Shown here piece by piece: positions 15,455-19,061 of a stretch of DNA of 64,000 bases (its first letter is position 1; each line of letters starts with the position of its first letter). Below the pieces are notes generated by a model, which did not search any database, was not told the origin of the DNA, and saw nothing but the letters and a program-made list of their open reading frames with translations. This stretch comes from an uncultured Caldilineaceae bacterium. Lineage in GTDB: Bacteria > Chloroflexota > Anaerolineae > Caldilineales > Caldilineaceae. Location: NCBI GenBank assembly GCA_964566955.1, contig CAZMKQ010000002.1, positions 8,171-72,170 on the forward strand, read 5' to 3'. Position numbers and translations under genes: made by a program.

Positions 15455-16378
15455 TCAGTTGGGAGCCCAGTCCACAATGATTTGGGCGGCAGCGCCCGAG
15501 TCGTAGTACTCGACCCTGACCAGGTGGGTTCCGGCAGGCGGCGCGTAGTCCTTGAAGTACAGCGTCGCCGCCTGGGGTACCCAGCCGTCAATAACAAGGG
15601 TGTTGCCCACCCACACGCGTACGCCATCGTCCGACAGCGCCATGAACCGGTAGTTCCGGCCGTTGAAGTGGAATGTGTTGGTCCAGGCCACACTGAACAG
15701 ATCGGCCTGCACGCCCCGTCCCGGACTGCTGTGACCCCAGTTGAAGTTGATCGCCTGATCCGATCGGTTCAGGATCAACGCGGCCGGAGGCTGGTAGTGG
15801 TAGTAGCTGGCATTCCACGGCCCTTTGGGGACGTGTGCGGCCGGACTGGGCGGTGGCGCAGGCACGTAGGCGGGGGCTGCGGGGACTGGCGCGGGTGCCG
15901 GAATGGCGACGCCCTGCCATGAGTAGTTCAGCCTCGCGTAGGACGGCAGGCACAGGATGTTGCCCGGGTTGACTGCGGCGCCGGCGTGCAGGTTGTTGAT
16001 TTGAGCCAGCGTGATCGGATTGACTCCGTAGGCGCCTCCAATCCATTCCAGCGTCTCGTTGGGATTGACGGTGTGCATCTGCGGGCACTGGGATGGCGTA
16101 GGACCGATCAACCCCGGAATGGGTACATTCACCGTGGTGCCGGCTCGTACGTACCCGTGGGTCGGAAGGCCGGGATTGATGCTCACCAGTTGCTCCACGG
16201 TGATGCCGTGGCGAATGGCAATGGTGTACACGGTGTCGCCTTGCCGGACATAGTAGCCCGACCCGACAGGAGCCTGCGCCAAAACTGTGGATCCGCCTAC
16301 CGTCAACAACAAGAGCAGGGCCAGGACCAGGGCCCGCGCCGTTTTGCTTGGCAGGTTGCGAATAAAGTACCCGTGCAT
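15455..16378 (-). CDS. Secreted protein with two LysM domains and a C-terminal PA14-like domain
   Basis: A signal peptide is present. LysM repeats are 'YYVRQGDTVYTIAIRHGITVEQLVSINPGL' and 'HTVNPNETLEWIGGAYGVNPITLAQINNL'. The PA14-like C-terminus is 'WNASYYHYQ...INFNWG...FSVAWTNTFHF...YRFMALSDDGVRVWV...'. GGGAG lies before ATG 16378. Confidence 0.85.
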   Translation of the reverse strand: MHGYFIRNLPSKTARALVLALLLLLTVGGSTVLAQAPVGSGYYVRQGDTVYTIAIRHGITVEQLVSINPGLPTHGYVRAGTTVNVPIPGLIGPTPSQCPQMHTVNPNETLEWIGGAYGVNPITLAQINNLHAGAAVNPGNILCLPSYARLNYSWQGVAIPAPAPVPAAPAYVPAPPPSPAAHVPKGPWNASYYHYQPPAALILNRSDQAINFNWGHSSPGRGVQADLFSVAWTNTFHFNGRNYRFMALSDDGVRVWVGNTLVIDGWVPQAATLYFKDYAPPAGTHLVRVEYYDSGAAAQIIVDWAPN

Positions 16379-16674
16379 GGACGTGCTCCCGAGCTAGCCG
16401 GGTTCTGCGGATCGCGCCTGTTGCGCGGTGCCGGCCTTTGCCGATCAAGGTGGCGCTGGTCTGAACTGTCTGGGGAGTAGAACGGGCGGACAGCCCCCGG
16501 GGAAGAGGTTGAGGGCTGTGGGAAGGAGTGAGTAGTACGTAGCTGGCCTGTTTACACCATTCAGTTCAGGGCAGGCGCGAACCAAAGGGACGGTCTTGGC
16601 TGTTGCAGGACCTCGTTGGCTGAGTCAATATTTGAAGTATACCCCACGCGCGAGCCGAAGAATGTCGTAGGTTG

Positions 16675-17007
16675 CCAAGCCGTCCGGGCCATTGCACTCT
16701 GTTTTGAGACGATGCCAAGCGAAAAATGACTAAACGAAAATAATCGCAACAACCAGGCACCGAATGTGGTAACGCAACCAGCCTGGCAATCGACGCGTGG
16801 GCGCACACTGCATTGCACAACGTCACAAACAGTAGGCAACTGGGAATCAGCGCCCCATGGCAATAACAGGACTGCACTCCCCAAGTTGGGGGCGGCGAGT
16901 GCGGTACCGGGACCGAGAGGGACCGGATCCGGGTCACCGCGTGCCATGGAGACTGGACTTTCGGCAGACAGGCTCGATTTCATGTCCGCAGTTCCGGACG
17001 CGCTTGG
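16675..17007. ncRNA. Candidate structured RNA core inside a 1.1 kb ORF-free region; strand and class unresolved (RNase P-like motifs, not a canonical fold)
   Basis: 16675-16687 (ccaagccgtccgg) pairs with 16994-17007 (ccggacgcgcttgg): 13 bp with a 1-nt bulge. This helix encloses three others: 16753-58/16781-86, 16799-804/16850-55 and 16855-62/16942-49 (8 bp). Inside the last one lie 16874-79/16897-902 and a ccccaa..ttgggg hairpin. The minus strand reads GAAAGUCCAGUCUCCAUGGCACGCGGUG (16962-16935), resembling the RNase P P4/P5 5' consensus. Confidence 0.3.
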
Positions 17008-17499
17008 CCGCGATGTCTCTGTGGTGTGTTCCTGGTTCCAAGGACGAATTTGTTTTTTTTAGGCCCGCCCTGTGTCCAAGGGCCGCTTCCCCAATCAGGA
17101 TGCGATTGTCCTGTCCAAGCCGGCCTGGTCCGATCGATTGCGTTGTTCTCAATCCGGATCCGCAGGCGGCAAGATGCTCCTTGTAGTGGTCACTGCAAGA
17201 CCAACCGAAACCCGGCAGGAATAGCTTCCCTGCCGTGGCCGCGTTGGGCATTGGGGAGAGTTCCGGATCGCGTATGGCCCAGTCCCTGAAGCCATTCTCG
17301 AGGATTGTGAGAAAGGCGGAAAGCCGTTGAAGTTTTAAGGGTTGATGGGCCGACAGTCAATGGCCGGCAAGTTGGTGTCGTCGTGCTGTTGGGCTGGCGG
17401 TTCGTTGGCAAGGATTCGGCGTTGTGTATTGCTTCCTTGCAGTGTGACGGGTACTGGGAACCAAGGATGGTCAACGACGCAATCCATCAGCGGATGGGT

Positions 17500-18378
17500 T
17501 TAATCCCACTCTGTCCAAATGGCCTCTCCAAGCTGTCGGGCCAGGGCCCTGTAGGCATTGCGCATGAGCATAACGGTGGTAAGGGGCCCAATGCCCCCCG
17601 GTACCGGAGTCAACCAGCCGGCCTTGGCACCCACTGAATCCGGATCGCAATCTCCCAGCACCGTCTTACCGATGTATGTGGTCCCGATGTCAAGGACCAC
17701 GGCACCTTTCTTTACATAATTTCCGGTGATGAGATCGGGCTTGCCTACGGCCACGCACAGGATGTCTGCGCCCGTGGTGAGGGATGCCAAGTTCCTGGTG
17801 TGCTTGTGGGCAATGGTTACCGTGCAGCGCCGGTTGAGCAGGCGCATGGCCAAGGGTTTTCCGACAATCGCACTGTGGCCCACAACCACCGCCTGCTGAC
17901 CGCTCAACTCAAGGTCCAGGCTGTCCAGCAGGGCCATTGCGGCAGCCGGGGTGGGGGGTGTGAAGAAAATGCCGGTATCGGCGAGCAGGTGGCCCATGTT
18001 GCCGGGCGACACGCCCTCCAAATCCTTCGAAGGTGCAATTCGCCATTGCAGCATGGTCTGATTCAGATGGGTCGGCACGGGTGTCAGCAAGATGATGCCG
18101 GTAATCTCCGCAGCGAGGTTCAGCCGGTCGATGGCCTCCATGGCGTCTGCCATCCGGCAGTCTCCCGGTAGTCGCACAAGTTGATAGCCGATGCCCGTGT
18201 TGCCGCTGGCCCTGCTTAGGGCACGCGCATAGTTCAGGGCACCTTGATCGTCCCCCACCATCACGGCCGCGATGGTGGCCGCGTGGCCGGTGCGTTCCTC
18301 GAATTCGCGCACATCCTGCGCGGTCCGGCGTCGGAGCCTCCGGGCCAACGCGCGGCCTGTGAGCGGTTTGGCGGTCAC
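17500..18378 (-). CDS. folD: Bifunctional methylenetetrahydrofolate dehydrogenase / methenyl-THF cyclohydrolase
   Basis: Contains 'AAVMVGDD..ALNYAR', 'PVPTHLN', 'DLEGVSPGNMGHL', 'VVVGHSAIVGKPLAMRLL' and 'VPGGIGPLTTVML'. GTG 18378 overlaps the upstream stop (GTGA), so I prefer it to the listed 18450 start. Confidence 0.9.
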   Translation of the reverse strand: MTAKPLTGRALARRLRRRTAQDVREFEERTGHAATIAAVMVGDDQGALNYARALSRASGNTGIGYQLVRLPGDCRMADAMEAIDRLNLAAEITGIILLTPVPTHLNQTMLQWRIAPSKDLEGVSPGNMGHLLADTGIFFTPPTPAAAMALLDSLDLELSGQQAVVVGHSAIVGKPLAMRLLNRRCTVTIAHKHTRNLASLTTGADILCVAVGKPDLITGNYVKKGAVVLDIGTTYIGKTVLGDCDPDSVGAKAGWLTPVPGGIGPLTTVMLMRNAYRALARQLGEAIWTEWD

Positions 18379-19061
18379 CGGGACTGATCCATTCGTTCGG
18401 TGCAACGGTCCAGGATGCGGTTGCTGACCCCGACCGCGTCCTTGATGCATGCCGCGATATCGGCTGCCAGGGTTTGGCCCTCCGCACCAGGCGTGGCCAT
18501 GCGCAGGTTGACGTGCACATTGACGTTGCTGCTGTGAACGGCTGCCAGTAGCAGATGGGTGCCTACCATCACGTCGGACAGCACCGTCCTGTTGCCGCGG
18601 TTTGCCACTTCCCAGGAGGCGTCGAGCACTCCCCGGCAGGTGTCCGCGACCTGAAGGGGCACGGTGGCCGCCGCGTGCAGGGCCTGGTCAAGTTCCATGC
18701 GTCGGACTGCCTGTGTGGATGGATCGGGCGCCGGCAGCTTCAGGCAGCGGTCCACTTCGGCATACGCGGCCGCGTCCTGGTCGGCCAGGTTCAGCAGTGC
18801 CAGCCGGTTGGCCTCCAGCCGCTGCTGGATCGGTTTCAGGATTCCTTCGTGGCGCTGAAACCGTCTGCGGCCCACGGTCAGATTCAGGACCATGCACAGC
18901 AGGGCTGTGCCATGGGCGCCGGTCACGGCGGCGGCGGTTCCGCCGCCCGGAACGGGTTCGCGGGACGCGAGGGCGTCCAGGAACGCGGAGGTGGGGATGG
19001 ACTGAAATGAATTCAAGGATACGGACAGGGGTCGGCGGGACGCGCGATTATAGGTTGCCAA
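18375..19061 (-). CDS. fchA: Cyclodeaminase/cyclohydrolase family protein (FTCD C-terminal / FchA-like methenyl-THF cyclohydrolase)
   Basis: 'FLDALASREPVPGGGTAAAVTGAHGTALLCMVLNLTVG' is the characteristic FTCD_C motif. The gene is translationally coupled to folD. The start is non-ATG (TTG 19061) and uncertain. Confidence 0.8.
   Translation of the reverse strand: MATYNRASRRPLSVSLNSFQSIPTSAFLDALASREPVPGGGTAAAVTGAHGTALLCMVLNLTVGRRRFQRHEGILKPIQQRLEANRLALLNLADQDAAAYAEVDRCLKLPAPDPSTQAVRRMELDQALHAAATVPLQVADTCRGVLDASWEVANRGNRTVLSDVMVGTHLLLAAVHSSNVNVHVNLRMATPGAEGQTLAADIAACIKDAVGVSNRILDRCTERMDQSR

What the first reader, a model, noticed from the sequence alone, without database searches (positions are those of the whole stretch)
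16380..17499. 1.1 kb ORF-free, lower-GC region with nested long-range helices: candidate large structured RNA (divergent RNase P RNA, other ncRNA, or a MITE)
The gap between folD and the LysM/PA14 gene has no credible ORF in any frame. Most other same-strand gaps in the window are under 100 nt.

Structure seen in the sequence:
- A 13-bp helix with a 1-nt bulge pairs 16675-16687 with 16994-17007. A 13-bp match in about 330 nt is very unlikely by chance.
- It encloses several hairpins or helices of 6-9 bp: 16753/16786, 16799/16855, 16855-62/16942-49 (8 bp), and 16874/16902 with an inner ccccaa/ttgggg hairpin.
- A T8 run lies at 17053-17060 on the plus strand.

RNase P-like motifs:
- The minus strand carries GAAAGUCCAGUCUCCAUGGCACGCGGUG. 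This is close to the bacterial RNase P consensus GAAAGUCCGGGCUCCAUAGGGCAGGGUG as I recall it.
- Further 3' on the minus strand lie ACAGA...CCCGGACGGCUU (16705-16677) and CAGAACCCGGCUA (16407-16395).
- The plus strand also shows RNase P-like fragments: GUCCGGGC, GGUAACGC and GUGCGGUA.

I could not build a canonical P1-P4 core in either orientation. The region is therefore either a divergent or expanded rnpB, an unclassified structured RNA, or a non-autonomous element with 13-bp terminal inverted repeats.
Basis: seen in the sequence. Interest (0 to 1): 0.6.

Follow-up and report, generated by a model that had tools for sequence, protein, structure and literature searches.

The report
Decayed MITE in the folD–LysM gap
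The "structured RNA" candidate is an old, non-coding miniature transposable element (MITE) related to an ISAs1-family insertion sequence, sitting between ordinary flanking regions; it is not RNase P RNA and is an ordinary feature.

Summary
The 1.1 kb gap between folD and the LysM/PA14 gene is real, has lower GC and holds no credible gene. It is not an RNA gene.

- **What it is.** Its core (window 16684-17113, 430 bp) is a miniature inverted-repeat transposable element (MITE). The MITE has degenerate terminal inverted repeats of the CAGGGCAATCGCATTCTG type and an imperfect 10-bp target-site duplication.
- **Partner element.** The same ends flank intact 1.2-kb ISAs1-family insertion sequences in this genome.
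- **Copies.** About 97 such ends occur genome-wide. They belong to full ISs, short MITEs of about 180 bp and long MITEs of 420-550 bp.
- **Relatives.** At this site three related Caldilineaceae genomes are empty. One has the orthologous copy, two carry another lineage of the element in the opposite orientation, and one has an IS630-type IS.
- **RNase P.** Rfam finds nothing in the gap, and the true rnpB lies on another contig. The "RNase P-like" motif coincides with an apparent decayed internal terminal repeat (inferred from one alignment).
- **Structure.** 24 full-length copies show no conserved fold or covariation. The 13-bp helix pairs target-site DNA with internal sequence, and helices that long occur in 5% of shuffles.

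The rest of the gap is a conserved upstream leader of the LysM gene and the region downstream of folD. Interest is low.

The parts
15455..16378 (-). Downstream flanking gene: secreted 2xLysM + PA14 protein (307 aa)
   Evidence: ORF. Pfam LysM 6.5e-19 (2 stretches) and PA14 5.9e-13.
16379..16673 (-). Conserved upstream region (candidate promoter plus long 5' leader) of the LysM/PA14 gene. It is not part of the mobile element.
   Evidence: About 90% identical in all 7 syntenic relatives, whether or not they carry the insertion. Conservation begins near a TATAC(T) box at about 16650. The consensus fold is -72.8 kcal/mol but only 1 of 65 pairs shows a compensatory change. There is no Rfam match and no second copy in the genome.
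16674..16683 (.). Left copy of the target-site duplication (GCCAAGCCGT)
   Evidence: Direct repeat with 17114-17123, 8 of 10 identical with the core CCAAGCCG ([D3], 32). Empty sites in L026, L028 and L029 hold one copy of the homologous decamer.
16684..17113 (+). Long MITE (430 bp), non-autonomous partner of an ISAs1-family IS. The orientation given is that of the family model; it is antisense to the flanking genes.
   Evidence: nhmmer and BLAST find diverged copies in this genome and in 8 other genomes of the genus. TIRs and TSDs are seen in most of the 24 full-length copies. The site is empty in three relatives.
16684..16701 (+). Left terminal inverted repeat, degenerate (CCGGGCCATTGCACTCTG; 4 mismatches to the consensus CAGGGCAATCGCATTCTG)
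   Evidence: The IS on C5 has the perfect 23-bp TIR CAGGGCAATCGCATTCTAATTTG.
16702..16935 (+). Module A: AT-richer internal segment found only in the long MITEs. Origin unknown.
16937..16964 (+).
   Evidence: In the alignment this block falls in the same columns as the left TIR plus subterminal sequence of the short MITEs (GGGCAATCGCATTCT..TTGAC.GGACCTTGAGCAGAC). Inferred from this one alignment.
16936..17113 (+). Module B: short-MITE-like unit. It is homologous to the ~180-bp MITEs and, at its last ~80 nt, to the left end of the IS.
   Evidence: HMM positions 374-454 also match C5:16712-16640, 13 nt upstream of the transposase start.
17096..17113 (+). Right terminal inverted repeat (CAGGATGCGATTGTCCTG; reverse complement CAGGACAATCGCATCCTG, 2 mismatches to the consensus)
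   Evidence: C2:25283 corresponds to window 17113.
17114..17123 (.). Right copy of the target-site duplication (TCCAAGCCGG)
17124..17499 (-). Non-coding region downstream of folD, partly conserved, with a terminator-like hairpin at 17235-17213 on the minus strand
   Evidence: 75-94% identical to relatives. There is no Pfam match for the ORFs here and no Rfam match.
17500..18450 (-). Upstream flanking gene folD (316 aa)
   Evidence: Pfam THF_DHG_CYH_C 2.1e-53 and THF_DHG_CYH 1.5e-21.

Best explanation
Window 16684-17113 is a fossil copy of a long MITE family (about 420-550 bp) in a Caldilineaceae (Chloroflexota) genome.

Shown:
- The element has no transposase gene.
- It ends in the same inverted repeats (consensus CAGGGCAATCGCATTCTG...) as 1.2-kb ISAs1-family insertion sequences in the same genome.
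- It is flanked by a 10-bp duplication of the target.
- The rest of the gap is ordinary flanking DNA: a conserved upstream leader of the LysM/PA14 gene (16379-16673) and the folD 3' region (17124-17499).

Inferred:
- The DDE transposase of the autonomous IS binds these ends and moves the element in trans, making staggered cuts 10 bp apart in the target. That would explain the 10-bp duplications seen around the IS, the short MITEs and the long MITEs.
- The long form looks composite: a ~235-bp AT-richer module A next to the left repeat, joined to a short-MITE-like unit (module B) whose own left repeat has decayed.
- The window's copy is old. It is shared with one other species at 82% identity, its left repeat has 4 of 18 mismatches and its duplication matches at only 8 of 10, so it is probably no longer mobile.
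- It has no demonstrated cellular function.
For: 1. Multi-copy family. The core has about 8 long and about 30 partial diverged copies in its own genome. The family occurs in 9 of 20 genomes of the genus and was not found in five other genera of the family or in 16 other families sampled, apart from one weak match outside the element.

2. Ends and target duplications.
- The terminal 17-mer occurs 97 times at up to 3 mismatches, against 3 for a reversed control.
- Paired ends define ISs of 1210-1233 bp, short MITEs of 154-185 bp and long MITEs of 423-542 bp.
- Perfect 10-bp duplications flank the IS on C5 (GTTGACAGGG), the short MITEs at C2:72878-73061 and C289:1398-1580, and the long MITE on C32.
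- The window copy has GCCAAGCCGT and TCCAAGCCGG.

3. Autonomous partner. The IS at C5:16647-17877 has perfect 23-bp inverted repeats. Its 378-aa protein scores 406.6 bits on NF033564, ISAs1 family transposase (cut-off 70), and matches Pfam DDE_Tnp_1_assoc and DDE_Tnp_1. The short MITE's left end continues into the reverse complement of the IS right end, including the last transposase codons.

4. Insertion polymorphism at this site.
- L026, L028 and L029 are empty, and the window's joined flanks align straight through their junction.
- L030 holds the orthologous copy.
- L024 and L027 hold another lineage in the opposite orientation.

5. Transposase association. Full-length transposases at least 80% identical to the C5 protein occur in 6 of the 9 MITE-holding genomes and in none of the 11 without the MITE.

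6. Not RNA, not coding.
- There is no Rfam match, and rnpB lies elsewhere.
- The consensus fold of 24 copies is -12.6 kcal/mol over 585 columns with a covariation term of -0.44.
- Open frames are inconsistent between copies and have no Pfam match.
Against: - No two long copies are near-identical: the window copy is 64-82% identical to the others, and the closest pair among all copies is 93%. There is therefore no sign of recent amplification of the long form, and mobility of this subfamily is inferred, not observed.
- The window copy's left repeat and its duplication are imperfect.
- The origin of module A is unknown.
- Three MITE-holding genomes (all fragmented assemblies) have only distant ISAs1 transposases (53-58% identity).
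- At the folD site two different lineages occupy the same target position in opposite orientations, which simple one-off insertion does not explain.
Confidence: 0.9

Rival explanations
1. The element is a MITE that has been co-opted. Module A or the element's ends would supply a promoter, an operator or a small RNA that regulates the neighbouring LysM/PA14 gene, and likewise the genes next to other copies.
For: - Long copies sit in promoter-bearing intergenic regions, often 20-300 nt from a gene start.
- Orthologous copies are retained at several loci in up to six species.
- The window copy ends about 25 nt upstream of the start of the conserved LysM leader, next to a TATACT box.
- Module A carries a TTGAGA/TTAAGT-N17-TATACT-like arrangement in some copies. 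This comes from my reading of the alignments, not from a scan.
Against: - The sigma-70 scan finds no promoter-like site in 16300-17600.
- The same site carries the element in either orientation, or is empty, or carries an IS630-type IS in relatives, while the LysM leader stays about 90% conserved. The gene therefore does not depend on the element.
- Column conservation is fairly uniform, as expected for neutral decay from a master copy.
- Copies have large, differing internal deletions.
- There is no clear orientation bias once orthologous loci are collapsed.
Confidence: 0.07
2. The region encodes a multi-copy structured non-coding RNA that is not in Rfam, and the inverted ends form a closing helix.
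For: - The family is multi-copy and diverged.
- On the minus strand the consensus fold beats column-shuffled alignments (z = -6.4), mainly through pairing of the two ends.
- The single-sequence fold on the minus strand is slightly better than shuffles (z = -1.42).
Against: - The consensus energy is only -12.6 to -19.5 kcal/mol for more than 520 columns, with negligible covariation.
- The named helices are no better than shuffles.
- Copies differ by deletions of tens to hundreds of nt.
- The end pairing is explained by transposase-binding inverted repeats shared with a protein-coding IS.
- Target-site duplications and empty sites show DNA-level mobility.
- There is no Rfam match.
Confidence: 0.02
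3. The segment is an invertible DNA switch (inverton) that a recombinase flips between its inverted repeats, which would explain the two orientations seen at the folD site.
For: The element lies at the same position between the same flanks in opposite orientations in different species.
Against: - The two orientations are different lineages of the family. They are 60-66% identical while the flanks are 90-94% identical, and they do not group together in the tree.
- Dozens of copies elsewhere carry target-site duplications.
- No recombinase gene lies nearby.
- The ends are those of a DDE-transposase IS.
Confidence: 0.01
4. The region is a divergent or expanded RNase P RNA gene.
Against: - No RF00010, RF00011 or any other Rfam match even at E<=10.
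- The genome has an rnpB on contig C81 at 100.2 bits, E 3.6e-31.
- The string is an apparent decayed internal terminal repeat present in many copies of the element.
Confidence: 0.002

Closest known systems
Bacterial MITEs derived from DDE-transposase insertion sequences (for example IS630/Tc1-like, IS5-like and IS1-like MITEs; the Nezha and Correia elements are well-known examples, from my own knowledge)
   Same: Small (154-552 bp), no transposase gene, terminal inverted repeats identical in type to those of a co-resident autonomous IS, fixed-length target-site duplication, many intergenic copies, and filled versus empty sites between related genomes.
   Different: - The partner is an ISAs1-family IS. 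I know of no described ISAs1-derived MITE family, and two literature searches surfaced none, but I did not search ISfinder.
- The long form carries about 235 bp of unrelated sequence (module A) plus an internal decayed repeat, so it looks composite rather than a simple internal deletion.
- Copies are old and diverged rather than near-identical.
ISAs1-family insertion sequences (NCBIfam NF033564; includes the H-repeat/ISEc1-type elements)
   Same: The co-resident IS (C5:16647-17877) is 1231 bp with one transposase ORF that matches NF033564 at 406.6 bits. Its ends begin CAGGG and it makes a 10-bp duplication. From my own knowledge, these features fit the family description (1.2-1.5 kb, ends CAGGG, duplications of about 8-10 bp).
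   Different: The window's element shares only the ends and about 80 nt of subterminal sequence with the IS. It encodes no protein, so it is not itself an IS.
Bacterial RNase P RNA, type A (Rfam RF00010)
   Same: One 28-nt string resembles the conserved P4-region sequence.
   Different: There is no covariance-model match, the real rnpB is elsewhere in the genome, the locus is multi-copy and mobile, and a P1-P4 core cannot be built.

Membership tests
MITE (miniature inverted-repeat transposable element) | Small size and no transposase gene | tested here: met
   The element is 430 bp. ORFs in it have no Pfam match at E<=1, and open frames are inconsistent in strand and frame across 24 copies.
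MITE (miniature inverted-repeat transposable element) | Terminal inverted repeats | tested here: met
   16684-16701 and 17096-17113 have 4 and 2 mismatches to the 18-nt family consensus. Other copies have 0-3 mismatches.
MITE (miniature inverted-repeat transposable element) | Target-site duplication of fixed length | tested here: met
   The duplication is 10 bp. It matches 8 of 10 in the window copy and 10 of 10 at C32, L040, C2:72878 and C289.
MITE (miniature inverted-repeat transposable element) | Multiple dispersed copies | tested here: met
   The terminal 17-mer occurs at 97 sites against 3 for the control. There are about 8 long and at least 6 short paired elements in this fragmented assembly, and copies in 8 further genomes.
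MITE (miniature inverted-repeat transposable element) | Ends shared with an autonomous element that can supply transposase | tested here: met
   The IS at C5:16647-17877 has the same ends, perfect over 23 bp, and an intact 378-aa ISAs1 transposase.
MITE (miniature inverted-repeat transposable element) | Presence/absence polymorphism with an intact empty site | tested here: met
   L026, L028 and L029 lack the element and align through the joined flanks of the window.
MITE (miniature inverted-repeat transposable element) | Actual mobilisation by the partner transposase | not testable with these tools
   Needs a transposition assay. The only support here is the association of close transposases with MITE-holding genomes.
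ISAs1-family IS (as the autonomous partner) | Transposase matches the family model above its cut-off | tested here: met
   NF033564 at 406.6 bits against a cut-off of 70. Pfam PF13808 and PF01609 also match.
RNase P RNA (RF00010/RF00011) | Covariance-model match with the P1-P4 core | tested here: not met
   No match at E<=10 in 15800-18100 on either strand.
RNase P RNA (RF00010/RF00011) | The genome's RNase P RNA locus | tested here: not met
   rnpB is found at G000:C81:14066-14489 with 100.2 bits. The window sequence, by contrast, is multi-copy.
Conserved structured non-coding RNA (any) | Conserved secondary structure supported by covariation | tested here: not met
   The consensus fold of 24 copies is -12.6 kcal/mol with a covariation term of -0.44. 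The named helices pair in 56.7% of cells against 56.5% in shuffles.
Conserved structured non-coding RNA (any) | Discrete stable transcript | not testable with these tools

The most novel reading that the evidence does not exclude
The ~235-bp module A carried by the long MITEs could be functional cargo rather than junk, for example a portable promoter/operator or a small RNA. The ISAs1 system would then have spread it to the upstream regions of several genes (secreted proteins, an acyl-CoA-synthetase-like gene, the LysM/PA14 gene) in this clade of Caldilineaceae, where it was retained across species.
Probability: 0.07. Interest if true: 0.4.

Novelty: new member of a known kind. Interest (0 to 1): 0.12.

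Why it matters
Mainly as a clean negative. It removes a false RNase P / large-ncRNA candidate, and it explains why this gap is long, lower in GC and full of apparent helices.

It also documents an undescribed family of ISAs1-related MITEs, in short and long (composite) forms, in uncultured Caldilineaceae, some of them sponge-associated MAGs. That is useful for three purposes:
- annotating these fragmented assemblies, because the repeats sit at contig ends;
- masking repeats in ncRNA screens;
- using filled and empty sites as markers between species.

Tried and rejected
- **Rfam.** Scan at E<=10 over 15800-18100: only a chance mir-921 hit (E = 6.1).
- **RNase P.** Rejected; the real gene is on C81.
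- **Coding or pseudogene reading.** The five ORFs in the gap have no Pfam match. Frames are not conserved among copies, and indels in A1 and A2 are not multiples of three.
- **Orientation bias.** My first one-sided look suggested that the element always faces a gene start. The two-sided analysis, collapsed by orthologous locus, showed mostly divergent intergenic sites and both orientations at the folD site, so no bias can be claimed.
- **Simple inversion between repeats.** Rejected as the explanation for the opposite orientation in L024 and L027, because those copies are a different lineage.
- **Promoter scan.** Nothing in the gap.
- **Literature.** Searches for ISAs1-derived MITEs gave nothing specific.
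- **Earlier findings of this scan.** The look-up returned only notes on neighbouring genes.

Full report
**Setting**

The window is part of contig C2 of a 4.87-Mb, 308-contig assembly. Record titles of its closest relatives name uncultured Caldilineaceae (Chloroflexota) MAGs; isolate names such as SB0661_bin_34 and IRC1_bin_30 suggest to me that some are sponge-derived.

The finding's interval is the 1121-nt gap between two minus-strand genes:
- folD at 17500-18450;
- a secreted 2xLysM+PA14 protein at 15455-16378.

**Checking the observation**

- The gap, its lower GC (0.52-0.57 at 16500-16900 against about 0.60-0.69 in the flanking genes) and the quoted strings are all present.
- ORFs of up to 140 aa exist, but none has a Pfam match even at E<=1. 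Homologous copies do not keep them open in a consistent frame.
- The 13-bp helix is real and extends to 14 bp. Helices of at least 13 bp with at most one bulge occur in 3 of 60 dinucleotide shuffles of the gap.
- The segment does not fold better than shuffled sequence: z = +0.15 on the plus strand and -1.42 on the minus strand.

**RNase P**

- A permissive Rfam scan (E<=10, both strands, 15800-18100) returned only a chance microRNA hit.
- The genome's type-A RNase P RNA is on contig C81 (14066-14489, 100.2 bits, E 3.6e-31).
- This reading is refuted.

**What the core is**

*A repeat family.* BLAST of the gap against its own genome showed that query 298-746 (window about 16676-17124) is repeated on at least seven other contigs at 68-75% identity. 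The first ~300 nt and last ~280 nt of the gap are unique. Iterated nhmmer raised this to about 8 near-full-length copies and about 30 partial ones. Two modules emerged:
- module A, about 235 nt, found only in the long copies;
- module B, about 180 nt, which is much more widespread.

Some hits cover only the last ~40-80 nt of the model. Several of these (C5, C186, C221) lie just upstream of ISAs1-type transposase ORFs.

*The autonomous partner.* The IS at C5:16647-17877 is 1231 bp long.
- It has perfect 23-bp terminal inverted repeats (CAGGGCAATCGCATTCTAATTTG) and a perfect 10-bp target-site duplication (GTTGACAGGG).
- Its 378-aa protein scores 406.6 bits on NCBIfam NF033564, ISAs1 family transposase (cut-off 70). 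It also has the Pfam DDE_Tnp_1_assoc and DDE_Tnp_1 domains.

*The window's element.* It ends in the same repeats, in degenerate form:
- CCGGGCCATTGCACTCTG at 16684-16701;
- CAGGATGCGATTGTCCTG at 17096-17113.

It is flanked by GCCAAGCCGT (16674-16683) and TCCAAGCCGG (17114-17123).

*Genome-wide census.* The terminal 17-mer occurs 97 times at up to 3 mismatches, against 3 for a reversed control. Paired ends define three size classes:
- ISs of 1210-1233 bp;
- short MITEs of 154-185 bp, two of them with perfect ends and perfect 10-bp duplications;
- long MITEs of 423-542 bp, one of them with a perfect duplication.

*Origin of the short and long forms.*
- The left end of the short MITEs continues into the reverse complement of the IS right end, including the last transposase codons. 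They therefore look like internal-deletion derivatives of the IS.
- In the long MITEs, the start of module B falls in the same alignment columns as the left repeat plus subterminal sequence of the short MITEs.
- The long form is therefore probably module A joined to a short MITE whose own left repeat has decayed. This rests on one alignment.

**Comparative evidence at this locus**

Seven relatives share the folD-LysM arrangement. The alignment A1 and the family HMM show the following.

| Locus | State of the site |
|---|---|
| L030 | Orthologous copy, same orientation, 82% identical over the element (L032, same locus) |
| L026, L028, L029 | Empty, with a single copy of the target-like decamer |
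| L024, L027 | Full-length element at the same position, opposite orientation |
| L025 | A ~1.7-kb insert encoding an IS630-type transposase by my reading of its ORFs; not scanned |

- The window's two flanks, joined after removing the element and one duplication copy, align straight through the junction of the empty sites.
- The L024/L027 element is only 60-66% identical to the window's, while the flanks are 90-94% identical. It does not group with the window's copy in a tree of 24 copies.
- In that tree, copies cluster by orthologous locus, with matching flanking duplications across species. Most insertions therefore predate species splits, which explains why copies within one genome are only about 70% alike.
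- Column conservation is fairly even at about 70-90% majority, except for a deletion-prone middle, as expected for neutral decay from a master copy.

The family was found in 9 of 20 genomes of the genus. It was not found in five other genera of the family or in 16 other families sampled; the only hit outside the genus was one weak match (E 0.006) to the folD-side flank. Full-length transposases at least 80% identical to the C5 protein occur in 6 of the 9 MITE-holding genomes and in none of the 11 others.

**Tests for an RNA**

- On 24 full-length copies, RNAalifold gives -12.6 kcal/mol over 585 columns with a covariation term of -0.44.
- My alifold run with column shuffles shows a signal only on the minus strand (z = -6.4), and that comes mainly from pairing of the two terminal repeats.
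- The left arm of the 13-bp helix is the target duplication plus 4 nt of the repeat. That DNA differs at every other copy, and the pairing is not kept in the ortholog L032 (alignment).
- The T8 run is specific to this copy.

**The rest of the gap**

- 16379-16673 is about 90% conserved in all seven relatives whatever occupies the insertion site.
  - It starts near a TATAC(T) box and is unique in the genome.
  - It folds to -72.8 kcal/mol in consensus, but with almost no informative variation.
  - I read it as the promoter-proximal region and long 5' leader of the LysM/PA14 gene. This is an inference.
- 17124-17499 is the folD downstream region, with a terminator-like hairpin at 17235-17213 on the minus strand.

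**Mechanism**

Shown:
- the anatomy of the element: inverted repeats, target duplication, no ORF;
- shared ends with an intact ISAs1 IS;
- filled and empty alleles;
- multi-copy distribution.

Inferred:
- trans-mobilisation by the ISAs1 DDE transposase, with staggered cuts 10 bp apart;
- the composite origin of the long form;
- present immobility of the window copy, because its ends are degenerate.

**Not testable here**

- Transposition itself.

**Verdict**

This is an ordinary mobile-element fossil, a new member of a known kind. The RNase P and large structured RNA readings are rejected.

Noticed in passing
window 16379-16673 (minus strand): The ~295 nt upstream of the LysM/PA14 gene is about 90% identical in seven species, as conserved as the coding sequence. 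It is unique in the genome, has no Rfam match, and has a stable consensus fold (-72.8 kcal/mol) but too little variation to test covariation. It may be a long structured 5' leader.
   Followed up: partly
L024:5472-5944 and L027:5477-5968 versus window 16684-17113: The same target position between folD and the LysM gene holds a different lineage of the MITE in the opposite orientation. The elements are 60-66% identical while the flanks are 90-94% identical. The closer relative by folD (L024, 94%) has the inverted form, whereas the more distant L030 (87%) has the orthologous copy. This points to an insertion hot spot, element replacement or recombination; it is unresolved.
   Followed up: partly
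L025:5041-6749: In another relative the same gap holds a ~1.7-kb insert. Its two overlapping ORFs (160 aa and 229 aa) read to me like an IS630-type transposase; I did not scan them. The gap looks like a landing pad for several kinds of mobile DNA.
   Followed up: partly
G000:C2:72878-73061 (about 700 bp beyond the window's right end): A 184-bp short MITE of the same family with perfect terminal repeats and a perfect 10-bp duplication (GGTGTCAGTG). It is probably a recent insertion.
   Followed up: partly
L017 (G000:C3:47000-56000): Two paralogous secreted-protein genes (about 470-490 aa) are each preceded by part of the long MITE: module A at C3:48451-48720 and module B at C3:54020-54401. About 5.3 kb lies between them, encoding a 456-aa ORF and a 420-aa ORF of unscanned function. 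This may be a segmental duplication or rearrangement through the element.
   Followed up: no
L001 (G000:C81:14066-14489, minus strand): The genome's real RNase P RNA scores 100.2 bits on RF00010, only just above the gathering score of 100. The rnpB of this lineage is rather divergent from the type-A model.
   Followed up: no
window 17213-17235 and alignment A1 columns 287-437: Five relatives carry about 150 extra nt where the window and L030 have a terminator-like hairpin downstream of folD. This is an indel of unknown nature.
   Followed up: no
window about 28188 and 60685 (G000:C2:36358 and 68855): Two solo matches to the terminal 17-mer, each with 3 mismatches. They may be chance matches or remnants of further elements.
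   Followed up: no
own genome, contig ends (C120:137-290, C221:1-109, C159, C186, C252:3233-3286): Many copies of the IS and MITE ends lie at contig ends, so this repeat family is one cause of the fragmented assembly and true copy numbers are underestimated.
   Followed up: no
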